DNA of 63,604 nucleotides, the filler included, from Sluysia triapertura (lineage: Eukaryota): assembly GCA_046118255.1 (NCBI GenBank). It is 5 parts of 5 records of this genome, joined end to end, with 100 filler letters (N's around TTAATTAATTAA, not from the genome) between each part and the next. Parts side by side here need not be neighbours in the genome. Positions count along the whole stretch, not along the records: positions 36,930 to 50,067 come from JBJNIA010057324.1; 4 more parts are not named here. The stretch is one strand, 5' to 3'. The position numbers and the translations under genes are program-made. The notes beneath the pieces were generated by a model that made no database searches, was not told the DNA's origin, and was given only the letters and a program-made list of their open reading frames with translations. Numbering within the stretch: position 1 is the stretch's first letter; the number at the start of each line of letters is the position of its first letter. Shown one piece after another: positions 10,019 through 61,048 of the stretch.

Positions 10019-10669
10019 GTAGTTATACTGAATTTACAAATAAAATACCGAATTTTTCTGAAAAAACTTAGCGGACAACGTATTTTCATATTTTTCGCAC
10101 TCTGTCACTGAAGTGGGTCATGTAAAACTACATATTTAGCATATTTATTCTAGAGAGTGGGTATTTATGGTGTTAGTGCTACTAGAAACGCTTTCCATTG
10201 TTTCTTCACAGAGGTTATGCATATCGAGTTTGCTTATTTTACTTATTGATCAAACTCTTGCGATATTCACCAAAAAAACGCCCGCTGCATCCGTAAATTT
10301 CGAAACCAAGATAAAATGTAATATTAAATAGAATCAAATTGTTTATTTGTTTTTTTAATTATTTTATGTATTATTTTGACGTACATTAATCTGATTCTTA
10401 AGTGTTTGCATTTCCTGAATACAAAAATCAAAACAAATTCATGTGCATGTAAAATTCGAATATGTCTATCTATTTAAAAGTCAAATCTAAAATTTCCTTT
10501 ATATCTATTTTTTTCTTCGGACAAAACTTTTTTGATGTGAAAGTGTTTTATTTAAAGAACTACTTACAAAATAAATACTAATTTAGGGTTTGTTTATAAT
10601 GCACGATTTATACCCTTATGAGAGACGTACCTCTAGGATTACGTCTGTTATCTTACATTGTACTAGCAA

Positions 10670-10745
10670 ATATTCTTATATTAAATTTCGACACAAAACT
10701 AGTTATTCGATTGTGGAAAAACAATCTATAACTCTCTTCAGATGA
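10670..10745 (+). mobile_element. Possible LTR-retrotransposon RNase H relic
   Basis: SYIKFRHKTSYSIVEKQSITL resembles the Gypsy RNase H motif NYSxxEKExLA. The match is short and degraded. Confidence 0.3.
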
Positions 10746-11086
10746 ACTTTACACGTTAATTCTTTAGATTTTGATAGATTATACGATAAATTACATAAAC
10801 TTTTATTATAGAAATGTACGATTCTCACGATTGATTTTAATGATACTATTAAATTCTCTTCTTTCTGTAAATATCGTTATAAGTACAACACTTTTCTTTA
10901 ACCCTTTTTCAATATCAAAATATATAATTGATGCGTTTTTAATCTGTCTCAGTATAAAATATGTGTACAAAACTAAAAGAAAAGAAAGCTTCGTAATATT
11001 ATACAATAAAATTCAAACTTTAATACTGAAGGTGTTTATGAAAAATTAACGATTCTTCCACCAAAAAAATAATTTAGTATTATGTT

Positions 11087-11138
11087 GAGTCCACCTGCGA
11101 TCCTAGTCTTACATAGTTAAGGGCTAGTCCGTAGGATT
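11087..11138 (+). repeat. Dispersed repeat core, copy 1 (possibly a solo-LTR family)
   Basis: GAGTCCACCTGCGATCCTAGTCTTACATAGTTAAGGGCTAGTCCGTAGGATT aligns with GAGTTCACTTGCGATAATAGTCTTACGTATTTCGGCTAGTCCGTAGGATT at 17430-17479. Weaker relatives lie near 1550, 14890 and 22990. Confidence 0.6.
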
Positions 11139-11363
11139 ATAGAGGTCGATATTAATTGTTTGGATTTGTTCTTATAAAACGTATTTATATCTTATTCTAA
11201 ATGAAAAATGTATCGCTAGGGGCTTAACTATCTCACTTTAATGTAATATGGGTTTACGTTTAATCCTAATTAGCATAGGTTATATTAATCAATTAATAGA
11301 TTTGTTGAGGTAAAAGGCCTAAAAAGTGCCAAGTAGTATAATTGAATATATTGAAAATGAAAT

Positions 11364-11385
11364 TGTTAGACGGGGTTGATAGCTC
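11364..11385 (+). mobile_element. 5' end of the tRNA-bearing TG...CA mini-element (runs into an assembly gap)
   Basis: TGTTAGAC-G-GGGTTGA-TA-GCTC matches 38839-38860 at 20 of 22 positions and abuts the N gap. Confidence 0.7.
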
Positions 11386-11485
11386 NNNNNNNNNNNNNNN
11401 NNNNNNNNNNNNNNNNNNNNNNNNNNNNNTTAATTAATTAANNNNNNNNNNNNNNNNNNNNNNNNNNNNNNNNNNNNNNNNNNNN
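11386..11485. other. Assembly gap with TTAATTAATTAA linker
   Basis: N run with a central 12-nt all-frame-stop linker. Confidence 0.97.
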
Positions 11486-11820
11486 AATAATTTCTAGCGA
11501 ATCCTCTTGTAGGTCTTCTTATATTTTGATAATCTTGGTCTGAATTTTGGTAATCTCTTCTTGCGTTTTGATAGTCCGAAAATAGACTCAAAACTCTTTC
11601 CTAAATGATCAACACATTTCTTACGGTTTTCCTAATCCGTTACGTTTTCTAATATAGTTAAGTAATTTCGTAGAATGCAAATCTCTTCTGCTACATCTTC
11701 AGAATTAATAACGGCACCTATACTATTACAACTATTAGATTCACGTAAATATTTCTCAACTTGATTTCATTTGTCTTTTTGCAGTTGATGTGTAATTAAG
11801 TTACTCTTATTATCTTGTGT
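11486..11820 (-). pseudogene. Decayed ORF of unknown identity, probably TE-derived (gag-like?)
   Basis: About 110 codons in one frame with two stops (QDNKSNLITHQLQKDK*NQVEKYLRES...ENVTD*ENRKKCVDHLGKSLSLFSDYQNARRDYQNSDQDYQNIRR). No diagnostic motif. Confidence 0.3.
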
Positions 11821-13339
11821 TGAAAGTTCGATTTTTAACACTTTAACAAAATACATCCTACTTGGCACTTTCCATTTCTCTTAAGAAACGTGGTAAAACA
11901 GCAGTAAAAAGGATTAAGTCCATTCATTCTAAACTCTTTTGCAACTTATTTCTCCAACTCAAAACCAAATTTAATAAATGAAGTTTGGTGGTATATGATT
12001 ATTTGGTGAACCAGCAATCACAAAAATTAGTTTCTTTAGAACAGGTAACAACGTTTGATTGAGTATTAGTTTCAGTTAAATTATTTTCAATAATTTTTTC
12101 AATTTTACGAAACCAAGTAAACATTGATTTTTTAATTTTTATTTAAATTAATTTTTATTTATATTTTGCCTAGAAATGTAATAATCTACGTTCCAATTTT
12201 AAATAGAAATTGGATTAAAATATAATACATCTTTTTAAGAAATATATGATAAAAGAAGTATTTACAAAAATTACCCAAATATATAAGTTTATTAATCAAT
12301 TTATTGACTGATTGAAACATTTTCAAAGTCGATCTTATTCTGAATAAATTAAATATATGTACAAATAAAAATACAAAAATAATAATTTAATCTATAAATA
12401 ATAAAATCTATAATCTATAAATAAATCACTCATATACCAAGAAAAAATGTTATCTTCAAGGTCAATTAGCATGTTACATAGAAAGTTACATGGATCAGTC
12501 TCAATTCAACAAAAAACCATTTCTGTAATTGATATAACATAAACTACATTTATAATAAGTGTAAAGTAAATTTTTACAGAAACTTTATAATCTTAAAGAT
12601 ACGCTATTGTGATGACTTAGAACAAGTATGCTCTTCATAGATGAATCTAATCTTCTTGCTTCTGATATTGAAGATAAAGGCAGCAGGAGCATAAAGACTT
12701 AGTGTTAGTGTTTCACATCGATGTTGTAGTAAATATTCACATAACAAAGAGACGCTTATAAATAATTATTTTTGTATTATGAATTATTGATAAGAGTTTC
12801 TTGGAGTTGATGATGTGATAGCACAATAATTTCAGATTTTCTCATATTGCATAGTGCTTCCCGTGTGATTCATTACTGTCGTATTTTCCAGGTCCCATAG
12901 ATCGTTCCTGAATTTCTTTTTCCACATATAAATATTTACTGAGGAAATGATAAATAATTATATGGACTTATCTCTACATACTTACAAGAGTTAACTAAAA
13001 AATAGAGAAATCAGCAAGTGGAGCAGTAACAAACATAGAGGATGATGAAAAAAAGAGTAATAAAGACAATAACAGAAAATAGTACGGTAACAATAATTTT
13101 AATAAAACATTAAATGAGTGCAACAAATTTTGACTATAAACTGTACAATTTTACAGTCTTATAATATTATATAAAAATTGCGTTTGTGTTTTATGTATGT
13201 TGTTTGATGATTTGATATTTGCGTTGAAGTTTGTTTAAGATTTTATTTATAATAAATGTATTATATTGTGTTGACATTTGGCTATGATAGTGAGACTGAT
13301 TTTGGGTTCACCACAACAAGTAACGTTAACAAATAGAAT

Positions 13340-22935: not shown

Positions 22936-23220
22936 TATATATGCAATGGTTTATGATAAAAGCTACACTTGCAAAATAAGTCTGAAGGTGAATTCGCCTA
23001 ACAGATACGACATAAATCTAATTCAAGTCGGTCTATTAAGATTTATCAAAAAGAGTAAGTTATTGAATCTTACAAACATCTTTTATGCGATACTCTTAGA
23101 TCAATAGAAGCTACATAATCTTCCTTACAAAGATAACATACTAATGTTTTTAGATTAATATCTCAATAAATTATATTAAACTAGGCAATTATGGTCTAGT
23201 CGTGTGTTTTATATTTATGA

Positions 23221-23559
23221 TTTATATTTTATTTTATTAATTATATTTAAAAATTTTCAAGATCGTAAATTATTATAAAAATTATTTCGTCGACGATTCG
23301 GATACCACAGAATCGAGTGATGTCGGAGCTGCAGTCGATCTGGACGATTGATCTACTAACTACGTGACTGATTATTTAAACACTAACAATGTTTTATCTT
23401 ACTCTACGTTTTATGATTATTTTTTTATGATTAGAGGACAAATCTCTCTGTGATGGTATGTGTTGGTAAGGGTATAAAGTTTTATTTTTATGTTTTATAT
23501 TTTATTTTATTAATTATATTTAAAAATTTTCAAGACTGTAAATTATTATAAAAATTATT
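23221..23559. repeat. 66-bp direct repeats (23221-23286, 23494-23559) flanking a 207-bp insert
   Basis: The two copies differ at only two adjacent positions (GATCGT vs GACTGT). Confidence 0.85.
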
Positions 23560-24439: not shown

Positions 24440-25320
24440 AAAGTTATATTTAAACTTAGATGCAAACGCACGCGTTGGTCACTTTTATCATTGCATTTTA
24501 TGAGTTATTTACGATACTTATCTGACAACATTACCGACAATTTTGTTCTCTATTGTTTATGTTGAAGTAAGAAGTATTTTTGTATTCTTGACCTTTAGGT
24601 TTACCTTATTTACATGTACGCCAGTAGTAAGTCGTATGCTGTAAACGGACTCTGAATAATAATTTATTCTGCTGTTAGGTAAGTCTTTTAAAAGAAAAAA
24701 CCCGTTTGGTAATGTTGATATTGATTGAAGGTTTATTTTTATGTTTAGATCTTGTTTTAAGAAATTTTCTAAGTTTAGAAAGGGATTATTCTTTAATTTA
24801 TTTAATATGTAGTTTAAATTATCTTTGGCAATTAATTCACAATTTGAAATGACTTTATGAAATACGTTAAACAAGATACAAAATAACTTAACTATAAAAT
24901 GTTTATTATAAAATTGGCGATTTATATTTATAATATATATACGTTCTGATATCTGAAAAAATTTAGAAAAATGATCAATGTTGTTTAAAATTACATTGGA
25001 TTTTACATTAAGATCATTGATTGAGACTTGTCGAGCCACGGAGTTTAGACTTTCATATAGTTCAATGATTTGGCTATCACTCATAGTATGTACATATTTA
25101 CATCTATGGCCATACTTTAAGAAAACTCCTGATTCGTTTGAAGAAAAAGGACATAAGGCGATGTCACTGTATTGATGAGAAAAGATATCAATTTTGTAAT
25201 TTTTTTGTGCACAATTAATTTAAGTTTATTGTCAGTGACATCGAATGGTTGGATCACTTTAAAATCTTTATTCTGTCTATTTATGAAAACTTGATCAGGG
25301 TGCTGTCTTTGTTATGATCT
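24440..25320 (-). pseudogene. Intronless decayed ORF with a degenerate CCCH-like zinc finger
   Basis: The 175-aa ORF 24557-25084 extends upstream in frame through CPFSSNESGVFLKYGHRCKYVH, and further upstream across a frameshift in an A run. Several in-frame TAA codons follow downstream. Confidence 0.4.
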
Positions 25321-36000: not shown

Positions 36001-36667
36001 TCTGTCCAGCGGAGAAAATTGAAGTAGACCAAAATCTTCAAGTAATCACACCTTAGATTCATAGAAATTTTTTAAATTTAAATCGTTCCTCGTAATAAAT
36101 AACAAAATTCTAGCAAAAGTACACTGAATCGAATGTTCCTTATATATAATTTTTAATTTCAATTTTGTTGTCTGTTGTAGAATACTTATAACTATTTATA
36201 CTGTTATTTATTATTAGTGATAATTTTTATTATTTATAGTTTTAGCAATAATCAGTATAATAATTAATAATAATAATTTCACAAAAATTCGAAACTACTA
36301 TTTCCAATAATAGTAATTAGCTAATAGTGTATATGGTAGAATAATTTTGATAATAATAATTTTTAAATGCAGCAAATTAATAGTGTAATAATAATTTTGT
36401 AATGTAGTAACAAATAATAAAATAATAATATAGATAGTAATCTCATAATAATTTTTCAACAACTAAATGTATGATAATAATAAAATTCATAATAATAATT
36501 ACATTCCAACATTACGCAATAATTACTACTTTCGTCCAAATGTGTTACTGAATTTTGATTATGTATAATTTATATTTATTCTAATTTTAAGTTGATTTTT
36601 GTCGATTATGATGCTTTTGACATAACATTATTTCTATATTCTGCCAAATATTCAATTTAAATTAATT

Positions 36668-36800
36668 TTGATCGAGAATAATGTTACTAATTTTTAATTG
36701 CATACAAGTTTTATTCAATATCAGTTTAATATGATTTTGACTTTCGTATTAATAGTTTTACTTGGATTTTATGTTCTTAAAGTTTGATTTTACATTCTAA
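36668..36800. repeat. Dispersed T-rich repeat; second copy at ~48022-48130
   Basis: Shared blocks GAGAATAATG..CTAATTTTTAATTGC, AGTTTTATTCAAT, TTTAATATGATTTT and TTCTTAAAGTTTGATTT.ACATT. Confidence 0.7.
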
Positions 36801-38838: not shown

Positions 38839-38872
38839 TGTTAGACGGGGCTGATAACTCAGTGGATAGAGT
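38839..38872 (+). mobile_element. 5' part of the tRNA-bearing TG...CA mini-element (terminus, acceptor strand, D-arm/A-box), interrupted by a retrotransposon
   Basis: TGTTAGAC G GGGCTGA TA ACTC AGTGGATA GAGT gives a tRNA 5' acceptor strand, U8A9 and a paired D stem ACTC/GAGT. Confidence 0.75.
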
Positions 38873-40238
38873 TATGCTCTATCTTGGCTGAATGACTTCT
38901 GACATGGTGGACCAAAATTCGACAATCTATTCTCAATTTATGCCGAAAATATCGAATTTCTGCCTAATTCTTTTACTGTGAGGACCAAATAAAATTAAAT
39001 ATGAAATGCGACATCCTTGGTGAAAACGAAGTCATATTAAATCGGTTTTATAAAAAGAAAGTAGATAAATATCTTCATGAACTTATTAACATTCGGAAAT
39101 CCAAGGTCGCTTTGTCGAATTCTTCATGAGATGTCATATATCTGGTCGTCCGTTTTCTTTACAATTAAACACCAGAGTTGGATTTTTATGGTTAAGGATA
39201 GGAATAGTATACTTAAGCTTAATTTCTTTCCACAAAACGTTTGACTGCATCTTCGCTGGTGTGGCTTTGACGGAAAATAAGCCCACGTATTATGTCTTCG
39301 TCCTCGAACTATCATTGACCGTATCGTCAGACATAATAAAATTCTCGAATGGTTACATAGTAAACTTAAACAAATGGGCTTCTCAGTCAAAATGGATACG
39401 AAAATCCCCTTACTGGTGACTATTGAAGACCTGATATGTTTTCTCATTGACGTCAAGATGCCGATTGATGATTATGAGAAATTTAAGGCGGCCCGAACTT
39501 TCAATATTACGAAATATTCTGACCTGAGAGATAAGCTCCAAATACAACTTAAATTTCAGGTTTCCCTTGACACGTTTGTTGTTGGAGCACTTGGTTCTTG
39601 GGATCCTGAAAATGATATTATTCTGAAAAAACTAGGCTTCTTTAGGGCCGATATTACTAGTTTAGCACGCGAATGTATCAAACTCTCCATTGAATCCTTC
39701 TTTAATATGTAAAAGGACCATTCCCTCCAATATCGCACATAAATACTTTTGTTGTGATGTTACTTAATCTTGGTATTTTAATGCGTTTGTTTATCCTATA
39801 TCTTTGGGGCTATATCTTTAATCATTTGGTTTTTGGGAATAATCAATCTATTATACAACAACTGATATTCTCTTTCACATTTTCATTTCCTTCTTCTTTT
39901 CATTTTATATTCAATGTTTTTATTTATTTCTTATATTCTTTTATTTTTATTTTTCCTTATTTATTTCACCCACTTAATTGTGATTTATCATTAATGTGAT
40001 TGTGATTTAATATATTTTTGTTCTTTCTGATTTATCACTGGTATACTTGTGGCCCTATATTTCAACAATTATTAACATGCACGAACAACAATTTCTTAAA
40101 TGGACGATCAGTATAAGCTACATTAACTACTTTTTATATAAATATGATCCCTCTATTTATATTTATTATTTGATTATGTATTCTATTAATGAATGTACTT
40201 ATTTTTGTTATAAAATAAAAGTTTTCAATTCAATTCAT
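38873..40238 (+). mobile_element. 5'-truncated, decayed non-LTR retrotransposon with restriction-like endonuclease (NeSL/Utopia/R5 group)
   Basis: Motifs appear in order across frameshifts: TWWTKIRQS, QGRFVE, SWIFMVKDRNSILKLN (cf. DWRFIHRARLNxLPLN), LRWCGFDGK*AHVLCLRP (CCHC knuckle), RHNKI, DLICFLIDVKMP...AR...KYSDL (PD-D/ExK nuclease) and FVVGALGSWDPEND. A T-rich 3' UTR, AATAAA (40214-40219) and a (TTCAA)n tail follow. No RT core is present. Confidence 0.85.
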
Positions 40239-40262
40239 GGAACTGCGCAGCGAAATCTAACA
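40239..40262 (+). mobile_element. 3' remnant of the tRNA-bearing mini-element
   Basis: GGAACTGCGCAG-CGAAATCTAACA matches GGACTGCGCAG...CGAAGTCTAACA of the copy at 49996-50067 (minus strand), with the intervening T-arm deleted. Confidence 0.7.
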
Positions 40263-40705
40263 TAAAATCTAACAAATTAAAAACGCAATAACCAATAATA
40301 TTTAATAGAAAACTAACAAAACACATCAACTACCCAAAAATATTTTCACTTTTTTCAGACATTTTAAAAATATTTTTTGCAAGTACAAAAACTGTCTTGA
40401 AACGCGCAAAAGTAGAGTTATTTATAATCTTCAAATATTTTAAAATCACTTACTCTAATTTTTAGTTGCATTATGAGCGGTGTGCACCTTATAAAACTTA
40501 AATAGAAAAAACATCTAATAATGTCTTTTTTAAATCACTTACTTTATATAAATTCTTTGTTTAAATTAATACGAAAGTAATGCGTGTAGATAGATCATTT
40601 ATTTATTCACACAGAATTAAATATTGCATTTATTTTATTATAATAAAAGTTTTAAATTTTTTTTACATTGTTCCTATTTTTAATAATATTTAAAATTTAA
40701 AAGTT

Positions 40706-43700
40706 ATGTCTAGTTGTATTAAAATTAGTGGTAAATTTAAAGATGCTATCAAATATGGATTAGATGCATCATTTCGTTTGACAAAATTTACAAATTTGAA
40801 GGGTTGAGGTTGCAAAGTTCCGCAGGCTGCTTTAAAAGAAATGCTTGCGGAACTTGGTTGTTTTTCTTTTGGCAATGGAGGCGATGCTAAATCGAATCTT
40901 GCCAAACATTCTATAGGTATTTTATTATAATTATTTCAAATATCTTTCAGGAATAGGATTAGATTCTTGCGTTTTACCTTTAAAACAGCATCCCAATTTA
41001 AATTTAGTTCAAACTACCGATTTCTTTTATCCATTAATTGATGACCCTTATACTATGGGCCGTATTGCATGTTGCAATGTGTTGAGTGATTTGTATGCAA
41101 TAGGAGTAGATAAGTGTGACAATATGCTTATGCTATTGGGAGTTAGTTCACAAATGTCCGAGGAAGAAAAACGAGTTTCAGTGCCTCTACTTATGTCTGG
41201 ATTTCGAGTTATCTTATTTTCAAAATATTATTGATATTTAGGATTGTGCAATAGAAGCAGGAACGGAAGTACAAGGTGGACAAACTGTTGTGAATCCATG
41301 GCTAATCATTGGTGGTGTTGCGACATCAATTTGTGAATCATCAGATTTAATTATGCCTTATAATGCTCAAGACGGTGATATATTAGTATTAACAAAACCT
41401 CTTGGTACTCAGGTAGCAGTAAATGTACATCAATGGATGGAAACTTCTCATCCAAAATATGAAATTATTAAGGAAATAGTTACAGACACTGATATTGACG
41501 AACTTTTTGATAAAGCAACTTTTCAAATGGCTTCTTTAAATATGATAGGTGAGTTTATAGTATTATTAATATTTAAGAGAATGTTGTTAAATTTAATATT
41601 AATTTCAAGTTTCCCAGGTGGTTCTTTAAAGTTGGGTTCGATATCCATAAAAATTTATTATAGAAAGCAATTAAAAAATCATTGGTCTTAGTATAGTTTT
41701 TTACAGCATAAGGTTGTTTTTCCTGTGGATATTTTCATGTTTTTTAATAAAACTAATATACTTTAACAATTTTGAATATTACTTGTTTACGCGAAATATT
41801 AAATAAATCTTAACTTAAATTGCCAATATATTATTAATAGGTCCATGTTATTCAAATATACGTGAGTTATGTTTACACGTTTGAAAATATATCGAATAAC
41901 GTAACCTAAAAAATCGAATTAACATTTTTAAAAAATAAATTAAAATATAAAGTCAAAAGAAAATATAATAAGAGCGACAGAAATATATTAGTGAATTTCC
42001 ACTTAAATTTTTTAATCAGATTTTAAAGAAATTTAGGGTTTATTTAATAGGATTTAAATAGGAATTAAAAAAATTAAGCTACTCTTTATAGAATTGCCCG
42101 AATACTATTGATATTTTATATGTTTGCGATGAATAAACTAAATTTTTTTTATAAATTCATAGCCTTTTAATAATATTATAAGCTTTTCTATTAATGTTTT
42201 TTCTTTGTATTTAACTAAAGGTATAATCCTTTATGAAAATAAAATTTAAAACTTATTGTCCTACTTTAAATTCGCCTTGAATTCATCTAGGGACTTTTGT
42301 TGGGTCTCCTGAACCTTTTTCAAAATCTGTTGTATTTTTTGTTTGTCTGAGTCTATAAGAGATGTTTTTGAGTGTAGTTGTGAATGAAGTTTGTTTTGTG
42401 TAAATGTATTTGGTGATGTATGTGTCATGTGTGTGTAATTTGTGTTGTGTGTGCTTGTTATTACTGCTACTACTATCATTCTTCTAGTCATTATTATTAT
42501 TATCACTATTATTATCGTCATCATCATTATTGTTATTATTATTATCATTATTATTATTGTCATTAATATTAGTGTACTCGTTATTATTATTGTTATTACT
42601 GTCATTATTATTATCGTTATTATCACTATTGTCTTTATTATTACTATTGTCATTCCTATTGTGATGACTATCTCTGACTATCTACAACACGTTGATTATT
42701 TTATCGACATTGATATCTAAACATTGATATGAATGACTAAATAATCTAAATACATTGATAGCTTTAATCTACATTGATATAACATTATTACAAATTACAT
42801 TTGTTTAATATTTAATATTTATCGATTAATTTTATTGATTTTATGCTTACATTTGTTGATTAATTATTGAATTTTTGGAAATAATTTTGGTATTTCAAAT
42901 TATTAATTTTTGAAGCAGAGTAATATAGAAAATGCTATTAAACAAACAAGATGTAGAAGAGATGTTTAGATGCTGCGCACATTGCAAACTTGAATTGTGT
43001 AAGATTAATAACATTTATTGTCAAGAATTATCTGAAGTAGATCAAAGACCTAGACGTGTTGTGTTTGTAAACATGGATCATTCAAAGCTACAAATTAATG
43101 TTGTTGCATTTAATAAAATTGAAAGTAATTGGATCAAACTCAATTCCTGTTGGAGGTAGAGGCATTGACAATTATTTATAATTTCATGAAGGAAGTATTC
43201 AAAACAAAATATAATTTAAATGCTGATAATACGAAACCAAGTATACGGTAAGTACCGTAACTAGTATCTGACAAGATAATAAATTCGGGCTCCCTGCAGC
43301 ACCAAAAAACAATTATATGCAACGCAACAATTATATTTATAACGAACAGTATGCATGTTCAAAAAGTATATATAAAATAAAAACCAAAGAACAAATTTAT
43401 GGATTAGAAAACGATTATAAGAATATCGTCAGCATACATATATTTTGGGCAGGAACACGTATTCAGGGTCCTCAAGCCTGGGCACATGCGGGTGCACCTG
43501 CCTAGTTAGGGCTTTTATTGTGGTTATAACAATAATGTTAAAAGCTTTTACACAATTAGTTCTTAATCAACAGAAATTCCTTGGAATGATATAGATGTGA
43601 GTAGTAAAATACAGCGCTCAATTGGAATATTGTTTCAATTTTAAAATAATACGTTTTCAGATTTTTAAGGAAATATAATATTTTGTAAAAATAATTCAAG

Positions 43701-44970
43701 GTGAGTGTGCTATTTTTCGCATATTAATAGTTTACATTTAAGCTATTTTTTATTTGCACGAATAAAACTTATTTCATGTTAAAAAGCTTCTATTGATGAA
43801 AAGAAAAACCTATCTCAAATAAATTACAATTCGTGTCGCAAGATGCTAAATTATTGAATAATAAAAATATTACATCTAAATAAAAGCCATTGTGGATGTA
43901 ATAAATCAATAACAAATAAATTAATGCGGCATTAATCTGAATTAAAAAATTAAAAAAAGTTACAAAATTTTGCATAATTTATGTAGTGATTGAAATGGCT
44001 GCATGGTTTTTGCTTAGCTAGATCAAACTTAAATGGTTGTTTGATGATGTTGAAACCACTGACATAGCTGATAGCAAAGAAACGAAGGATCAGGTTTTTC
44101 GAGAATGGAACGAAATAAACAGAACAAGAGAATGTAGCCAACAGAGATTCAAAGATATTTAAGATTGTACGTTACGTAAAGATGTTGATTTAGTTATAAT
44201 GAGTAATATAATTTCACAGAATCAACCGATATGTGTTAATGTTGAAGTCAATGATGCAACTGGTACTAAAGAATTGAAAATGCAAGGCGATATCAAAGTC
44301 AAAATGACACAAACTATTTTGAACCATATGAAGGAATCGATTCAGATGAACGAAATTATCAAATAAATCAATCAAGACTTTTCATAAAATAAATTCATTT
44401 GATAATAAAGTTTTTACAAAATGAGTGCTTAATCGACAGAAATTCTTTTGCATTATATAGATGTGAGTAGTAAAATACAGTGCTCAATTGGAATCTTGTT
44501 TCAATTTTAAAATAATGCGTTTTCAGATTTTTCAGGAAATATAATATTAATCCAAAATAACTCCGAACTCGAATGTGAATCAATGATTTGTTAAAACCAA
44601 AAATTATATTATTAATCATCAAATTGAAATTCAAATTTCCAATATAGAGAAATTATAATCAAAAGTTCTTGTTATTTTGTATTATGATGAAAAAACTACT
44701 TCCTTTATAGTATTTTTTAAGGATTCCAAAATGCATTTAATTTTAAAAAATAATAATTTTCTTCATAATCAGTTTCTTCCTATAATATTAATCTCCCTAT
44801 TTAACCTATAATAAGATACGTTTCAATTTTTTTCTCTATATTACCTGATTTTTCTATATAATAGTCAATCACATTCTGTAATGTGGCGCTGGCTATTGTA
44901 TTTTCTATAGTAATTTTATATCCGTTTTAATTATATAATGAGCTATAGTAGATTATAGTTTTGGTTGCAC

Positions 44971-45014
<44 letters not shown>

Positions 45015-46031
45015 GTATTTGTACATGCATTTTGTGTCAGTTATTTTATAATAAGTACATAATTATAAATGTATAACAATTATTATAACACTTATTTATA
45101 ATAAGTGTTTTGGTTACCTATATTTTATTCTTTATTAAAGTACTTGTGGTTACGTACATTTTAATGTTTCACTAATATTATCACACTGAAGACGGTATGT
45201 GATGAAAAGCATATAATCTAAATTCCCGCACAAAATTATCACTAAAATTTTACAACGATTTAGATTAAATGCAACTCTGAATTGAATTTAACGGCTCTTT
45301 ATTATTCAGCTATATAAAGCACACACTTTCATCAGATATTTGTTTATAGCAACAATTTTTGTAATGTTGTTTTTACTCATAATTGCAGTTTTATACTATG
45401 TTGCTTGAAATTCCAAATAACGTGAATTCACGTCACCCATATTCAGTGTGTTAACAAAATATTTCTTTTACATTTCTTACTTTAACAATATTAATTTAAA
45501 ATAATTAATTATAGAATTTCTACATTGACTATGAAATTTATTTCTAATAAGTAATAGTTTCGAATTCTATATTTATGCCATGGACAAGTTACAGATTAAA
45601 ACATAATCAATTAACATAAATTGATTATTGTGTAATTTTAATATAATCGTGCTTTAGGAGCTCGGTTAATAAAGAAATATGAAGCACATGCTTGTACCGA
45701 TGTCACTGGTTTTGGTTTATTAGGACACGCTCAGAATTTAGTTGAAAATCAAATCCAATCTGTCGATTTTGTTTTCACAATTCTTCCTTGTTTGAAAAAC
45801 ACAATGAAAATAGATACATTGGTTAACGGAATGTTCAAATTAGCTCGTGGTTTGTCGGCTGAAACTAGTGGTGGTTTGTTAGTGGCATTGGCACCCGATA
45901 AAGCTACTGGATTTATACAAGAAATGGAAAAAGAAACTGGCAGTCCTGTATGGAAAGTTGGACGAGTTGTTAGTGGTACTCGCAAAGCTATATTGAATGA
46001 TATTGATGCTGCTTCAGTTGTTGAAGTGTAA
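40706..46031 (+). CDS. SEPHS2: Selenophosphate synthetase (selenide, water dikinase), Sec/UGA-containing SPS2 type; exons 40706-40916, 40951-41207, 41242-41548, 45658-46031; 382 aa
   Basis: The spliced frame is continuous (1149 nt) with GT-AG introns of 34, 34 and 4109 nt. Motifs: [18 protein letters not shown] (TGA at 40805-40807, codon 34), [89 protein letters not shown]. Confidence 0.95.
42455..42670. repeat. Degenerate trinucleotide (ATT/ATC/GTT/ACT) low-complexity tract in SPS intron 3
   Basis: Source of the spurious Ile-rich ORFs 42261-42653 and 42442-42720. Confidence 0.85.
42900..44620 (+). mobile_element. Decayed DNA-transposon (hAT-like) material in SPS intron 3, with 140-bp direct repeats at 43541-43680 and 44407-44546
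   Basis: [11 protein letters not shown] resembles the hAT CxxHxxxL motif. A GC-rich end-like sequence CAGGGTCC...GGGCACATGCGGGTGCACCTGCCTAG lies at 43464-43505. The direct repeat is directly visible. Confidence 0.4.
44971..45011. repeat. (AAT)n microsatellite
   Basis: Perfect trinucleotide run. Confidence 0.9.
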
Positions 46032-46981: not shown

Positions 46982-49900
46982 GCTATAGTTCTACTTAAAA
47001 GAAAGCTAACTAACAAAATTAATAAACTATCTCTGAACGAAGACGCTTTAATTAGATTTTTACAAAGAAAAGAAGTTAGCTGTTAATTATATGCAAAACA
47101 GTTATATGTAACTTTTTGGATGCATATCCAAACGAATATCAACTCGTTAAATTTATATTTTAAATTTATTATAAATTAAGCCAGCCTTTTTACGGACTCA
47201 CGAATTTGTAATTAGATTTTAGAATTTGAACCAGCCTCGTATGGTCTGATTTACATGAAACATAGTTTAAATTATAAAGAAAAAGCAATGTTTTAAATTT
47301 CTATTATACAAAAGAAAAATGAGTTTACAACACAGTTAATAAGAATAATGTAGTAATTGTATGCAAATTGATACCTTAAACTTAGATATTAAATATATGA
47401 ATTTTAAAAAAGATTTTAACCTATCCAATTACGATATAGAATAAATTAGTTGTAGTTTACCTGGATTTTAATGATCCTATCGTTAAGATTAGGATTTTAA
47501 TACTTATTTACAAAAATTTACCTACGCATGGGAAATTATACATGAGCTGGCTGTCGAATTACAAAACATTGTGTATATATTTCAATTTCCAATATATATT
47601 GTCCAAAAGTTAGCTCCAAAACCTATTTTTCTTCAAAATGACTTTATTGATTTTCTCCTAAAATTTCATGCTTATTTCTTGCTTCCTTGTTTTCTGTTTA
47701 CAATTTAATTTTGAATAGTTAAAACAAATGTTAAATTTTTATTTTTAATTTATTGTTTTGAATAATTAGAACAATTTTTTAAAATTCTTTTTAAATACGA
47801 AATTATAATAATAATAATTATTATATTATTTACAACATTCTACAATATTTTTTAAATAATCAAAAGTCAAATAAAAATATATATAAATATATAAAATATA
47901 TTATAAATTCATAAATATAGTAAAGCAATAAATATCGCTCTGTCTGAAAAATTAAAATTTGAGCATTTTTAATTTATATTCATTATTATTCTATTTTACT
48001 TAATCTTTAATTTAAATTAATTTTAATGGAGAATAATGCTGCTAATTTTTAATTGCGTACTAGTTTTATTCAATCTTAATTTAATATGATTTTAATTGGA
48101 TTTTTATTCTTAAAGTTTGATTTCACATTATCTTTATAAAATCTCATTTTAAATGATTGTTTTTCTAATATCGATTTAAGATTAGTTATAATTTGTTACT
48201 AAATTTTAAATTTATGTTACTTCTGTTAAATCTCATTTTAAATTAATATAAAAGGATTTTAATGATAATTTTAATTTAATTTTAAGAATAATTTTATTAA
48301 ATAAATTTAAATTACATAAAAATGTGAAAGATTAAGAATTTAAAAATAAATGAATAGTATATTAGGTTAAAATTAATCATTAAATGAAAAAAATCTTTGT
48401 TAAATATATTTATTAAATTATAATAATATTTTGCAACCAATTTTCAGAGGTCACGGAGAAGAAATTTATTTTTAGTCAGTCATTCAAACTTTTACATTCC
48501 AATTTTTTACTTTTTTGAATTGAGATTTTAAAAATGACGCCACAGGCTTAAAAATATTCAATATTTGGCTTGTGGTTGATGATACAGTCTCAATTTTAAT
48601 AAATGTGTTGTATTGGTTTTAATTTTTCAGTGATTAATGTTTATAGTTTGAAACGATTTTTAAATATATATATGTGTGTGTTTTATTATTATTATAGGCA
48701 GGAAAATTATGTCTTTTGGTTTAATAAATACTTGCTCGTTATTGAATGTGTAAGATACGAAGTAATATGTGTAGTATGCAAAACGTGATATATAGTATAT
48801 CTATGTTATAAATCGCCTATATAATTTTGCTGTGGTTTTATATCTTAAACTTATCTTAATAAGCAAAATAGATTAATAGTAGAGTTCGCTTACAAAATAT
48901 GACTTACAAATGGTGTGTTTGTAAATAACGTGAGAATGCACTTATAAACTATCAAAGAAATATAAGTTAAATAACAGTGTCTCACTAAACGCGTTCGAGT
49001 TTAATTCCTTAACAAATATTATTATAAATAGGTTTATGACGAGAACTTTATGTAAACATTGTGGGCAAATATCTTTAATTGTACACGTGCTATGAATAAA
49101 TTATATGTTAATTATATATAATATCGGATATGAGAACAAATAATACTAAATGCGTATAATGAAAATATGTTAAAATAACTGTTACAAAGTTTTAATAAAT
49201 AATTAATACACACACGATGATTAAATAATAATAATATTCTTTTGAATGGACTTAGTCTGAAAGCTAAAATTAACTAGAAATTTAAAAGGATTTTATTATT
49301 GGCATTAAGGAGCAACAGAGAAGTGAATATTTTAAGTTGGATTTTTTACTTGATCTTTTTGAAAATTTAGATGATAATTGGTATTCACAATTGATATCAT
49401 ATTCGAATGCTCTGAGATGTCTCAAATTATTAGACCAACAATTATTTTCGATGAATTAAACTTGTTTTAAACAATTCTCAATATATTTATATTACTACTA
49501 CTATTCAATGTATTGTTGTGTTGTGAACATATATAAGTTACTTTCTTATATTGCTTTAGAGCCAATGGCTTTACTAATTACAAGTCCATTATTTTTTCGG
49601 ATTCTAGGTATTAACTAAAAAGTAAATTCAATTAATTGTTTTTCATCATTTACTAATACATTAGCTAAATATTTATCGAAAATAAATTTTTTATTAATTT
49701 AAAATTTATTTTAATTTAATTTATTTCTTTATTTAATGCTTTTTTTATTTTAATAAAGTTTTGTTTTCACCTACTAATTTATTAGTATATCATTTATTAT
49801 TTCAATATTTGTTGTTATACAGTCACTGTTCATTTTTATAAAATGTGAATTTGACTTTTCTAATATGTTATTGATACTATTTTTACTTTTGATAGTATAG

Positions 49901-49995
49901 AGTAATTTTATTATCTATTCCATAATAAAGTAATAAAAGTTAATAAATAAAATATATTATATACTTATTTAAATAATCGAACCTGGATGCATAAC

Positions 49996-50067
49996 TGTTA
50001 GACTTCGTAAAATGGACTGACCGGGGATCGAACCCGGGACCATCGTCTGCGCAGTCCGACTGCTCTA
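49996..50067 (-). tRNA. tRNA-like gene (3' two-thirds; apparent anticodon GCG, aberrant anticodon stem) inside the TG...CA mini-element; 5' end lost in the gap
   Basis: Minus strand: TAGAGC AG TCGGA CTGCGCA GACGA TGGTC CCGGG TTCGATC CCCGG TCAGTCC A TTTT ACGAA GTCTAACA. It has a perfect T-arm/B-box, a 3' acceptor strand complementary to GGGYTGA of the other copies, and a T4 Pol III terminator. More likely tRNA-derived than a translating tRNA. Confidence 0.65.
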
Positions 50068-50541: not shown

Positions 50542-50972
50542 TGCACGATTCATTTTTTAGTCCGTTATCAATGTTGGTAGTTGATTCAGAAAGATCACGT
50601 ATTTTGTGTCGAGAAGACCTAAATCATAATGAAATTGAATAAAGTTTATGAGTTAGCCAAACATTCAGAGATTGTTCGAGTTTTGATGAAGATTTTGAAT
50701 AAATTATTATTTAAATTTTCTTTAAAAAAATTAAGTTTATAAGCTGCATTAAAGATTAAAAAATAACAATTTTGTCAAGGTGTTCATCACTACTTTTAAA
50801 GAATTATTTGTTTAATTTACATTTTAGTTTTGTTTCAATCGATTTTCAGTGTTACTTCTTAATCTTTAAGGAATTTTATTCATTTTGTGATGGTACTTGC
50901 GACATTCATATTGTTTTTTTTTAAATAAGTATTTTCTGGTAACCAGTTTATCATGCAATTTTTCTTTCACAG

Positions 50973-51389
50973 AACGTGTACTCAGATCAATCCGGGATTG
51001 GTAGTTGGACCTGGTATGAATGCCACCTTCTTCCTAATGGAATATCTGGTGTTCCTTGTGGTGGTTCTTCAGTGTTGGTCCAAGATCCTAGTCGACGTGT
51101 GTTTATTCCATTTTCCTGGGTTAGTGGCGAAGCCTCACCGTGTCCTTCTTTAGTGTGTCCCAAACCACGCACAATTTCTCTTGATATAGCGTCGAGTATC
51201 TCCGAAACCGATATGCGTCATCCTCCATCTGTTAAAGAAGCTCCATCAACTCCAGTCAATCGTCGAGTGTCGTGTGACGGACGGCAGAAGAAGCGATTTT
51301 TATTTGAAACTCAAACAGATACTGAATTGAAAATGTGGTGTGACGCAATCAATGAGGCTTTATCAGCATACAATTCTTTTCGGCAATAA
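50973..51389 (+). CDS. Terminal exon encoding an anillin-like C-terminal PH domain
   Basis: A strong acceptor TTTCTTTCACAG precedes a GC-richer open frame NVYSDQSGIGSWTWYECHL...LVCPKPRTISL...KRFLFETQTDTELKMWCDAINEAL. This compares with the anillin PH motifs TIFEDVSGFGAW, FCARRNTFEL and the C-terminal Trp helix. Upstream exons were not identified. Confidence 0.7.
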   Translation, partial: NVYSDQSGIGSWTWYECHLLPNGISGVPCGGSSVLVQDPSRRVFIPFSWVSGEASPCPSLVCPKPRTISLDIASSISETDMRHPPSVKEAPSTPVNRRVSCDGRQKKRFLFETQTDTELKMWCDAINEALSAYNSFRQ

Positions 51390-56746: not shown

Positions 56747-57461
56747 TTAATTACCATTTTTGTTGTTTAATTAGTATTTTCTGTTATTCAATTACTTTAG
56801 CTGTCAATTTAGACGGCATATCAACTGTTAAATTAATACTGTCATTGGCCGACATTACTGCACATAGATACCATCCCTTAACAAGACTGGTTGCAAATTT
56901 CTGCCAATTTTTAATTTAACAGCCAATAAATAAAAATAGACGGTGATAAAATTAGTTCTCAATAATAAAAGTTATAAATTTTCAGAAATTTTTTAGAGAG
57001 AAAAGATTCAACTAAAAAAATTTTAGTAGAAATTAGCGTACAAAATATAAAGATCATTCTTTTTGCTATTTTAAAAGAACTTATGATTGATTTCAATTCT
57101 AATGTTGAACGATTATTCTGATAATTTATGATTAAAAGTCATCTTTATTTTTTATCATAAAATGTGATTGTGATTCTTTTTTTATTAAGGAATCCCCAAG
57201 TGTGAAAACTTATAGTATATCGAAATACAAACGGCCCACCCAACATGATGATAAACCTAACATTTTAATAGTCTTTATTTTTAGAATATTTAGTAATAAA
57301 TCTGTGTTTCTTTACTTAATAATGTTAAAAAAGAAAATAATTACGAATTATTAAAATTAAATTCATTTAAGTCAATAAATAATTTAAAGAAAAAATTTAA
57401 ATAAATTTATGAATTTTAATGAAGCAAATGCAAAAAATTTTAATAAAAATATTTATATTTT

Positions 57462-57755
57462 ATGTACACCCAAAAGTATTATCTTCTAACTGCAAGGACG
57501 CCTTACTGGCTTCGTGTCACATTTTGGCAAAAACACAAGGCGGAAGAATGGCAACTTTTCATTGATGCCTCAAAGACAAATCTTAAAGTAGTCATATTGC
57601 ACAATGGCAACATATATTTTCACACGAAACAGATGCGTAACATAGTATTATTCCTTCAGAAACTTTGGTATTTTGAGCATCAGTGGCTTATCAGCGGTGA
57701 TCTAAGTTATTCTTATGGAGATGAAAACCGATATGCAATATTTAACATAGTTTAG
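57462..57755 (+). mobile_element. DDE transposase fragment, Chapaev(3)/CMC-like
   Basis: EEWQLFIDASKTNLKVVILHNGN...L..L.Y.EHQWLISGDL matches the motif EWRLFIDSSKxSLKAVLLHNGN...HxWxICGDLK. Internally deleted. Confidence 0.65.
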
Positions 57756-59300: not shown

Positions 59301-59883
59301 AATGTTTGCAGATTAATGATGCATTTTTCAGTGTGGTGTTTCTAATATCAAACATAAGACAGTGCTCGGGAAAAAATTTAAGTCATCTTAAATAATACGT
59401 GACAATTGCACTTTAAAAGTTTTTACTTCTGTCTTACATGCCTTTAGGAACAGAAGAATAAAAATTGCAGATTTCAAATCAGTATATTAGAATTGATCAG
59501 ATTATAGCGAAATAAGAAATTCATAAAATTTGTAATCCACTGTTATCAATATTAAAATGCATTTTAATTCAGTAATCAACATTGTTTATGATTTAAAAAT
59601 TTTTTGAACATGAAAAGAATTTTAGTTTAAATTATTTTTGGTGACATCAATTAGACTAGAATCGGTAAATAAAACAAATATATACATATAATATATATAT
59701 TACTTTAGCAGTGGAATTTTTTAATCTAAGAGTTCCAGAAAAGCTACCAGATAATGAAACAATTTTCAAGAATATTTTTTTGAATAATCGTCTAAATCTA
59801 AATGGCTCGTGATTAATTCGTAAAGAAAATACCCGAATTGAGAAAAATAAAATATTCGAACGAAACATAAAAACATTACTAAC

Positions 59884-61048
59884 ATAAGCAATCGTTCCAT
59901 AATCACCTATCGATTTATTTTTATTTTTTAAGTTTTGTACAGATACACCAGTAGCTCCAGACAATGCTGCTACTACACTAGTTTCGCCAACATTCAATTC
60001 TATACCTTTATAATGTGGTGCAACTTGATTCAAACACAAATAGATACAACTGGCCAAATCATTCGGTGATAATTTGATAACAGATTTTAAGAAATTAGAA
60101 TAGGTTTGAATTTTGTCTAGTCGACCTGATATATTTTCAATTTCATGGAAAGTTCTTGCAATTGCCATATAAGGAACACTAAAGTTCGTTTTATATATAA
60201 GTAAATCTTACTCATCAGATTTTTTCCAACAAGCATCAATAACAGCATTATATGACGGCTTTGACGGATTGTAATCAAATGGTTTTCTAAATTAAATAAG
60301 TCAGTTACATAATTCAACAATACATAAAATTTCAATCAAATTAATCTATGATTTTAAATAATTCAAAAAAATTTTATAGCCTTAAAATTTTTTTAACATT
60401 TAAATACGATGATCTAGAGATTTTTATTAACCCATCCGATAAGTTATGAGATAAGTTAATCATTCAAATCTTGAAGTCATAAGTCCCCACAATAAGAGTT
60501 ATTTTATTATGTGTAGCATATAAGCTCAATATAAACTAAATAATTAATATACAAGCTAAATAAAATATAAGCTAAAAGTTTAATAATTGTAACTTACACA
60601 ATACAAGCAAATTCATCAGCCTTACTTTCCTTTTCATTATTATCTATTTTTAGTTGCTTAGATTTTGTTTTATTTGATTCATTACTGTCACTGTCTGAAT
60701 CTAAAACTAATTTCCTTTTCTTGGTTTTTGATGAAGCACTGGAAAAAAAGATATAACTTAATAAGAACACATTACTTCTCAGCTTTTTCTAGTGAATGAC
60801 TTGCTTGAGATTCTGCAGTTATTTGAACTTTAGTATTATTGTCAGGTTTCTTTTCAATTAAACTAAAATTATCATTCGAAGAACCTTTCGGCTTAAAGAA
60901 CGATCTGAAAATAAATAAAATTATATGATTTTGATTTCACTTTACTTACAACACACACGATTTAAATAAAACTTTATTTAAATAGGAATATTTAAAATAA
61001 CTTAACATTAAAATCAAAGAAACTTAACAGTATTGATTTTTGGGACAT
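59884..61048 (-). CDS. LIG1: DNA ligase I, 5' exons 61029-61048, 60776-60904, 60598-60738, 60212-60286, 59884-60178; downstream exons not found
   Basis: Phase-consistent GT-AG splicing (introns 124, 37, 311 and 33 nt) gives MSQKSILSFFKPK (PIP box), KTKKRKLVLDSDSD, and DYNPSKPSYNAVIDACWKKSDDVPYMAIARTFHEIENISGRL...YLCLNQVAP.YKGIELNVGE...GDYGTIAY, the start of the LIG1 DNA-binding domain. Confidence 0.92.

What the first reader, a model, noticed from the sequence alone, without database searches (positions are those of the whole stretch)
49996..50067. ~100-bp element that is essentially a tRNA gene between TGTTAGAC...GTCTAACA termini
Seen: three partial copies (11364-11385 +; 38839-38872 plus 40239-40262 +; 49996-50067 -) assemble into TGTTAGAC G GGGYTGA TA RCTC AGTGGATA GAGY AGTCGGACTGCGCAGACGATGGTC CCGGG TTCGATC CCCGG TCAGTCC A TTTT ACGAA GTCTAACA. 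This is a full cloverleaf with A-box, perfect B-box and T4 terminator, closed by perfect 8-bp inverted termini. Two copies break the assembly, which suggests high copy number. The split copy has near-matching flanks TAAAT / TAAAA(T), a possible 5-bp TSD. Established: TG...CA ends with 4-6-bp TSDs are the signature of retroviral-type integrases (LTRs, Ginger DNA transposons). tRNA-derived SINEs lack TIRs, and Cassandra TRIMs carry 5S rather than tRNA in their LTRs. Inference: a Ginger-type MITE or TRIM solo-LTR that carries and disperses its own Pol III tRNA-like unit.
Basis: partly seen in the sequence, partly recalled or inferred. Interest (0 to 1): 0.82.

Follow-up and report, generated by a model that had tools for sequence, protein, structure and literature searches.

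The report
Tiny LTR carrying a tRNA look-alike
This is most likely the very short end-repeat of a miniature, gene-less retrotransposon that carries a tRNA look-alike as its promoter, a kind of element described in 2024 (Helenus), seen here in an unusually small and very abundant form in an animal-like host.

Summary
The three fragments are real and belong to one ~100-bp repeat. In a run of this organism, 6,149 contigs lie on the 568-bp test stretch, with summed depth over a million on the element against 0-103 on the flank. The family ends sharply at the CA terminus with unlike flanks, and contigs read from the 3' half into the 5' half. Acceptor, D and T arms pair; the anticodon arm is defective. 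At 99-100 bp it is shorter than any listed LTR (minimum 104). Two high-depth contigs have the size expected of an 85-92-nt TRIM interior, but their letters were not shown, so paired LTRs, PBS, PPT and TSD remain unproven. Ginger is unlikely (8-bp versus 40-297-bp TIRs). The split copy is interrupted by a truncated RLE-type non-LTR retrotransposon. This scan has noted Helenus-like LTRs before in other genomes. Verdict: new member of a known kind; modest interest.

The parts
49996..50067 (-). 3' 72 nt of the ~100-bp element (end of D arm, anticodon arm, T arm, acceptor 3' strand, T4, 3' terminus); runs into an assembly gap
49996..50003 (-). 3' terminal 8 bp ending in CA; inverted copy of the 5' terminal 8 bp (putative integrase attachment site)
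   Evidence: perfect TIR length 8; 309 contigs diverge exactly at 49996
50009..50012 (-). T4 run directly after the discriminator A (50013); putative Pol III terminator
   Evidence: function inferred
50014..50020 (-). acceptor 3' strand; pairs 7/7 with the 5' strand, including G3.U70
50021..50037 (-). T arm with B box; 5/5 stem; the only listed variant at 2% or more in X1 on the element (50026) is tRNA position 60, C to T
   Evidence: position numbering by me
50050..50052 (-). GCG at the anticodon position in this subfamily, on a 3-of-5 stem with C37
50068..50167 (.). assembly gap hiding the 5' part of this copy and whatever lies upstream
11364..11385 (+). 5' 22 nt of a second copy (TG terminus, acceptor 5' strand, start of A box); runs into the gap 11386-11485
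38839..38871 (+). 5' 33 nt of a third, split copy (terminus, acceptor 5' strand, D arm/A box)
38872..40235 (+). 5'-truncated, broken non-LTR retrotransposon of the RLE (R2/NeSL-like) type inserted between the D arm and the anticodon arm; open stretch 39281-39709, long AT-rich 3' part, short pentanucleotide tail
   Evidence: motif reading (CxxC, RHN, VVGALG) from my own knowledge; Pfam and homolog search blank
40236..40262 (+). 3' remnant of the split copy, with a 39-nt internal deletion that removes the T arm/B box and T4; ends in CA
   Evidence: its first 18 nt match (17/18, by eye) the subfamily read in X1 loose ends behind 50040-50041

Best explanation
[quoted passage not shown] SHOWN: fixed 3' end, unlike flanks, very high abundance, several subfamilies, intact A/B boxes and three paired arms. 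INFERRED: a full element is LTR + ~85-92-nt interior (PBS, PPT) + LTR, about 290 bp. Pol III starts at the tRNA-like unit of the 5' LTR; the minority of transcripts that read through the first T4 end at the T4 of the 3' LTR, so the whole tRNA-like unit serves as the R region. An autonomous LTR retrotransposon (Gypsy in other animals, per Kojima 2024) supplies RT and integrase in trans. LTR-LTR recombination leaves solo LTRs such as the split copy at 38839-40262. The copies at the two gaps may be solo LTRs or ends of full elements.
For: Sharp family boundary at the CA with 309 unlike flanks (agreement 0.42) and no tail. Halves co-occur. Same layout as published Helenus LTRs: TGT start, tRNA-like unit, T run, ACA end (supplement parts 1, 6, 7, 9); the 104-bp Helenus-2_TeGr LTR shares a 23-nt identical T-arm run and bivalve families in Fig. 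S1B have near-identical acceptor/D segments (by eye, no computed alignment). Box A and box B motifs as defined in PMC10886601 are present. X2 record 9 (221 nt, depth 209, 72/72 identical) runs 123 nt past the CA and stops 1-2 nt short of the TG, the shape of a circularised LTR+interior with a 91-92-nt interior; X3 record 15 (145 nt, depth 188) starts with the last 30 nt of the element and runs 115 nt on, against core depths 555 and 382 (ratios 2.9 and 2.0), giving an interior of 85 nt or a little more. Published interiors are 43-621 nt. One X1 contig holds two same-strand pieces (joint 50041 to 49996).
Against: No PBS, PPT, paired LTR or paired TSD was read as letters. The X1 loose-end consensus past the CA shows no PBS (contig-counted, so a conserved interior would be outvoted, but it gives no support). 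None of the four element ends visible in the window abuts a PBS or PPT. The two long high-depth contigs could instead come from a host repeat that took up one copy, or from a longer element. A T4 directly behind the unit should stop most transcripts: in one human test context T4 read-through was very low (PMC3141230, passages), although most Helenus LTRs have a T run at the same place. T-arm identity with Helenus is expected of any tRNA-derived sequence and does not show common descent. No autonomous partner could be searched (no genome).
Confidence: 0.8

Rival explanations
1. The 100 bp are the whole element: a MITE-like DNA transposon (Ginger2/Tdd or another integrase-like DDE family) that has captured a tRNA-derived sequence and moves by cut-and-paste.
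For: 8-bp perfect TIR, TGTNR start shared by Ginger and Gypsy; AT-rich flanks as for Ginger2; thousands of copies or more with unlike flanks and no PBS seen; the split copy is a singleton.
Against: Ginger TIRs are about 40-297 bp; here complementarity stops after 8 bp. Short TIRs are normal in Helenus LTRs (by eye). A MITE does not need an intact Pol III promoter and terminator. High-depth extensions past the CA in X2 and X3 are not expected.
Confidence: 0.1
2. It is the LTR of a longer element (autonomous Gypsy/BEL/Copia or a LARD-like derivative) rather than of a TRIM; the window copies are solo LTRs.
For: TG...CA ends; the extensions in X2 and X3 could be the first part of a long interior cut by contig branching.
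Against: The X2 record fits a closed 191-nt cycle; a Pol III promoter limits transcript length (argued in PMC10886601).
Confidence: 0.06
3. It is a tRNA-derived SINE or an amplified family of ordinary tRNA genes or pseudogenes, and the matching ends are incidental.
For: ARAGORN accepts the joined unit; the terminal 8-mer is not rare in this composition.
Against: Homology extends 9 bp before and 17 bp after the tRNA-like unit and stops at one base in hundreds of contigs with no A-rich or repeat tail; subfamilies differ in the anticodon arm; anticodon stem 3/5 and C37.
Confidence: 0.04

Closest known systems
Helenus (TRIMp3), Kojima 2024, PMC10886601; nearest in layout: Helenus-2_TeGr (LTR 104 bp), Helenus-4_CVi/-5_SaGl, fungal Helenus-9_PSt (112 bp), Helenus-1_SMo (120 bp, interior 85 bp)
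   Same: TG...CA unit holding a tRNA-like sequence with conserved boxes A and B, a T run behind it, short terminal inverted repeat, defective or mismatched anticodon arm, many solo copies.
   Different: LTR 99-100 bp, below the shortest in Table S1 (104); inferred full length about 290 bp, below the shortest listed (311); only 9 bp precede the tRNA-like unit; G3.U70 acceptor pair; rough copy number 1,700 or more, probably above most listed families (largest listed 5,575 LTRs); host is a divergent animal-like lineage not identified here. Interior, PBS, PPT and TSD not read.
Cassandra and Ajax TRIMs (5S-derived Pol III promoter in the LTR), as described in PMC10886601
   Same: Proposed mechanism: Pol III transcript from inside the 5' LTR to inside the 3' LTR.
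   Different: Promoter here is tRNA-type (boxes A and B), not 5S-type.
Ginger1 and Ginger2/Tdd DNA transposons (PMC2836005)
   Same: TGTNR terminus; Ginger2 prefers AT-rich targets.
   Different: TIR 8 bp against about 40-297 bp; flanks are not CCGG/CCGT (Ginger1); the word tRNA does not occur in that paper's main text.
tRNA-targeting NeSL-related non-LTR retrotransposons (LIN15_SM, LIN25_SM, NeSL-1_TV; PMC4640811)
   Same: An RLE-type element sits precisely inside a tRNA-like sequence (38872-40235).
   Different: One insertion only; family and target specificity not established.

Membership tests
Helenus (TRIMp3) | tRNA-like sequence inside the terminal repeat, with box A (TRGCY...YGG) and box B (GGTTC) | tested here: met
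   (definition); the 38839 copy has one change in box A
Helenus (TRIMp3) | TG...CA termini at which family homology stops | tested here: met
   3' end: 309 contigs diverge at 49996. 5' end: two window copies with different flanks share the same start; not tested against reads
Helenus (TRIMp3) | Two direct LTRs around a short non-coding interior (element under about 1.3 kb) | tested here: inconclusive
   Contig lengths and depths in X2 and X3 fit an 85-92-nt interior and one X1 contig holds two same-strand pieces; letters not shown
Helenus (TRIMp3) | PBS after the 5' LTR | tested here: inconclusive
   A two-contig mixed consensus in X2 is compatible with a His-type PBS of Fig. S2 if ties are broken alphabetically (likelihood ratio about 600, about 8 after allowing ~80 primer/offset choices). 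The tie rule is my assumption; weak hint only
Helenus (TRIMp3) | PPT before the 3' LTR | not testable with these tools
   The single read-laying run covered the 3' part of the element only; both 5' flanks in the window are plain AT-rich
Helenus (TRIMp3) | TSD of 4 bp (animals) or 5 bp (fungi, plant) | tested here: inconclusive
   One locus has both ends: 4/5 match at 5 bp (chance 7.3%), 2/4 at 4 bp
Helenus (TRIMp3) | Dispersed, with solo LTRs | tested here: met
   3 loci in 63.6 kb; hundreds of unlike 3' flanks; the split copy has both ends and no interior
Ginger1/Ginger2 non-autonomous DNA transposon | TIRs of about 40-297 bp | tested here: not met
   8 bp
Ginger1/Ginger2 non-autonomous DNA transposon | TGTNR terminus | tested here: met
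   shared with Gypsy LTRs, so not diagnostic
Ginger1/Ginger2 non-autonomous DNA transposon | 4-bp TSD, CCGG/CCGT (Ginger1) or RTATAY target (Ginger2) | tested here: inconclusive
   Ginger1 targets do not fit the AT-rich flanks; Ginger2 cannot be judged without paired flanks
Ginger1/Ginger2 non-autonomous DNA transposon | Integrase-like transposase element with the same ends in the genome | not testable with these tools
   no genome held
tRNA-derived SINE (SINE2) | tRNA head at the 5' end and a variable A-rich or simple-repeat tail | tested here: not met
   fixed CA end without tail in 309 contigs; feature recalled and as summarised in PMC10886601
Functional tRNA gene | Canonical anticodon arm (5-bp stem, 7-nt loop, purine 37) | tested here: not met
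   3 of 5 pairs, C37; other subfamilies differ there; the purine-37 rule is recalled
Functional tRNA gene | Expressed, processed, CCA-added, charged | not testable with these tools
   no RNA run available to lay

The most novel reading that the evidence does not exclude
The 100 bp are the complete mobile unit, a tRNA-like Pol III gene between two integrase attachment sites that spreads without any TRIM interior, and its thousands of copies yield a processed RNA that AlaRS charges through G3.U70 while this subfamily shows a GCG (Arg) anticodon, i.e. a transposon-borne alanine sink or Arg-to-Ala mistranslator.
Probability: 0.06. Interest if true: 0.8.

Novelty: new member of a known kind. Interest (0 to 1): 0.33.

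Why it matters
If the interior is confirmed this would be the smallest TRIMp3 on record (LTR 99-100 bp, element about 290 bp), with the LTR stripped to two attachment sites and a tRNA-like R region, a clean test case for the untested Pol III model of Helenus and for how such elements read through their own terminator. It would add a host lineage, and it warns annotators: intact copies pass ARAGORN as tRNA-Arg(GCG) and could inflate tRNA counts by thousands. The G3.U70 acceptor makes charging by AlaRS a cheap experiment, and the RLE insertion suggests the repeat may serve as a landing pad for a tRNA-targeting retrotransposon.

Tried and rejected
No whole genome is held, so copy counts, TSD pairs and partner searches could not be run. 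Exact-pattern scans found nothing: metagenome contigs, viral contigs; genome contigs was not scanned. No RNA holder listed: no evidence on expression either way. Runs X2-X6 held 0.04 of the words; X2, X3 and X5 were laid (4 of 6 runs laid, X4 and X6 not) and hold the element but not its flank; X1 and X5 share the same longest record length (43,309), so shared DNA is likely and I do not count them as further hosts. X1 may be the source sample or a near relative, so it is same-organism evidence. Summed contig depth is not a copy number (tool note); the bounds 1,700-13,000 (31-fold overlap assumed) to 54,000-400,000 (none assumed) are my arithmetic. Extra GGTTCGA words near copies (49983, 38566, 50285) score 16-18, which 6-21% of random 100-bp windows reach: rejected as decayed copies; nhmmer finds only the known pieces. 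The 3' flank at 49982-49995 resembles the fungal half-tRNA PBS by eye (11/14), but depth falls to 73 in the next bin, so it is not a shared interior. Homolog search with the RLE stretch: 0 of 349 candidates; Pfam blank. and one search used the wrong part of the ligase reading frame and are uninformative; one search used the right part. Host lineage could not be named. Literature searches for a tRNA-bearing MITE (1 paper with all five terms, listing only), later Helenus papers (3 listed), high-copy Arg-GCG repeats (none of the 15 listed holds that term) and G3.U70 in SINE-like elements (0) found no prior report of this family; the library lacks most subscription journals and Repbase.

Full report
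Setting. The window is 17-30% GC in 2-kb bins, has five N gaps and carries intron-split genes for selenophosphate synthetase, a PH-domain protein and DNA ligase I. The SPS exons score best against animal proteins among the 21 named homologues (top ten all animals, 51-57% identity; best unnamed hit 66%), with introns of roughly 35 bp and one of 4 kb. The host is therefore probably a fast-evolving animal; I could not name it. No whole genome is held.

Observation. Two end at assembly gaps. Joined through a 5-nt overlap they give 100 nt with an 8-bp perfect terminal inverted repeat; ARAGORN calls tRNA-Arg(GCG), score 103, whereas the raw window gives no tRNA. The acceptor stem pairs 7/7 with G3.U70 and discriminator A, the T stem 5/5, the D stem 3/4 in the 38839 copy; the anticodon stem pairs 3 of 5 and position 37 is C; four T's follow at once. 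The minimum-free-energy fold keeps the terminal and acceptor helices but not the cloverleaf. The suggested TSD is at chance level (7.3%).

Reads. One run, X1, holds 0.69 of the sampled words of 49300-50067; five others hold 0.04. Laying X1, X2, X3 and X5 on 49500-50067: X1 gives 6,149 contigs; summed depth is 0-103 per bin over 49500-49974, 6,239 in the boundary bin, 1.3-2.6 million over 49994-50050 and 0.4 million over 50051-50067. 309 contigs leave the reference exactly at the terminal base 49996 with unlike AT-rich letters (agreement 0.42) and 59 more at 49994. On the other side, groups of 45, 315, 81 and 32 contigs leave behind 50040, 50041, 50045 and 50056 and read into the D arm and acceptor 5' strand seen at 38839 and 11364. 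So the halves co-occur, the family has a fixed 3' end with no tail, and there are subfamilies that differ in the anticodon arm; the one with most contigs matches the remnant at 40236-40253. 92 loose-end rows and 6,212 pieces were not shown. Summed depth is not a copy number; my bounds are 1,700-13,000 if every 31-mer overlapped and up to 400,000 if none did; the window has one copy per 21 kb. The 59 contigs sharing GT beyond the terminus are 13-16% against 4.6% expected, a possible target preference, though aligner behaviour could contribute.

Is there a TRIM interior? In X2, X3 and X5 the element is present without this flank; X5 shares its longest record length with X1, so I read these as traces of shared DNA, not as new hosts. 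They are still informative because low coverage drops unique flanks. X2 record 9 (221 nt, depth 209) matches 72/72, runs 123 nt beyond the CA and stops 1-2 nt before the TG; if it is a linearised cycle, the cycle is 191 nt, i.e. LTR plus a 91-92-nt interior. X3 record 15 (145 nt, depth 188) begins with the last 30 nt of the element and runs 115 nt on, against core depths of 555 and 382; bounded by 30 LTR letters on each side the interior is 85 nt. One X1 contig holds two same-strand pieces. The letters of these extensions were not shown. A mixed two-contig consensus in X2 is compatible with a His-type PBS under an assumed tie rule (net likelihood ratio about 8); this is a weak hint. Against: no PBS or PPT at any end visible in the window, and a host repeat carrying one copy could give similar contigs.

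The split copy. 38872-40235 is a 5'-truncated non-LTR retrotransposon: a broken frame with CxxC, RHN and VVGALG motifs (motif reading from my own knowledge), nearest Atlas clusters eukaryotic 'reverse transcriptase' or hypothetical at 0.94-0.95, Pfam and homolog searches blank. It sits between the D arm and the anticodon arm with no loss of target sequence; the right part of the element has lost 39 nt including the B box. NeSL-related families that target tRNA genes are reported from planarians and Trichomonas (PMC4640811, passages only); one insertion cannot show specificity.

Mechanism. Shown: fixed end, dispersal, abundance, promoter boxes, three paired arms. Inferred: LTR = 9-bp U3, 74-nt tRNA-like R, T4 plus 13-bp U5; Pol III read-through of the first T4 gives a genome-length RNA ending at the second; a host tRNA primes at a PBS; an autonomous LTR retrotransposon supplies RT and integrase; recombination leaves solo LTRs. 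The weak point is the terminator: T4 read-through was very low in one human test, though context matters and read-through at canonical signals is reported (PMC3141230, passages). Most transcripts would be short tRNA-like RNAs; G3.U70 is the AlaRS identity pair and the anticodon plays no part in charging (PMC10543346, passages), so alanylation is possible, but the poor anticodon arm makes decoding unlikely.

Comparison. I recalled the name Helenus and confirmed it by search. Of PMC10886601 I read main-text parts 1-5 of 6 and supplement parts 1, 6, 7, 9, 10 and 11 of 11; parts 2-5 and 8, with further consensus sequences, were not read and could hold a closer relative. Helenus are TRIMs with tRNA-like LTRs from fungi, six animal phyla and Selaginella; 311-1,263 bp; 4-bp TSD in animals, 5-bp in fungi and the plant; some families are known only as solo LTRs; tRNA finders miscall them in the hundreds. 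Table S1 gives LTRs of 104 bp or more. By eye the layout here is the same, and the 104-bp Helenus-2_TeGr LTR shares a 23-nt T-arm run; no alignment was computed, and such identity is expected of tRNA-derived sequence. It works like Helenus with good probability; formal membership awaits interior, PBS, PPT and TSD, none of which failed a test. Ginger fails on TIR length (PMC2836005, passages); SINE fails on the fixed tail-less end.

Earlier notes. This genome has no earlier notes and no look-alike sequence was found; nine notes on other genomes reach a Helenus-like reading. They are unchecked and were not used as support.

Verdict. Real, abundant, mobile, and very probably a minimal Helenus-type LTR (0.8); MITE 0.1; LTR of a longer element 0.06; SINE or tRNA family 0.04. 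New member of a known kind; interest 0.33.

Noticed in passing
window 38865-38883 (+): The first letters of the RLE insert hold an inverted copy of the last 7 nt of target before the junction (fold-back), which may be a signature of 5' junction formation.
   Followed up: no
window 40253-40274 (+): A 10-nt stretch spanning the element's 3' terminus is repeated after 2 nt, probably slippage on a shared AAAT; it blurs the TSD.
   Followed up: partly
window about 40740-46031 (+): Selenophosphate synthetase gene with an in-frame TGA at 40805-40807 in the G-x-G-C-K-V-P motif, so probably a selenoprotein (SPS2 type); introns of about 35 bp plus one of 4 kb. SECIS not searched.
   Followed up: partly
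window 57447-57755 (+): Fragment with a motif I recall from an unnamed animal DNA-transposon protein family (FIDAS...VILHNGN); no Pfam hit.
   Followed up: no
window 43541-43697 and 44407-44563; 36626-36738 and 47981-48093; 23206-23286 and 23479-23559: Two-copy direct repeats of 157, 113 and 81 nt (84-95% alike), likely other repeat families.
   Followed up: no
window 59656-60207 (-), 50943-51389 (+), 24557-25219 (-): Exons of DNA ligase I, a PH-domain protein and a weak CCCH zinc-finger match.
   Followed up: partly
runs X1 and X5: Both report the same longest record length, 43,309 nt, suggesting shared DNA between runs labelled as different organisms.
   Followed up: no
window gaps 11386, 22836, 36830, 50068: Four gaps are 100-nt placeholders with a 12-nt all-frame stop linker, so their true size is unknown and could hide full ~290-bp elements.
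   Followed up: no
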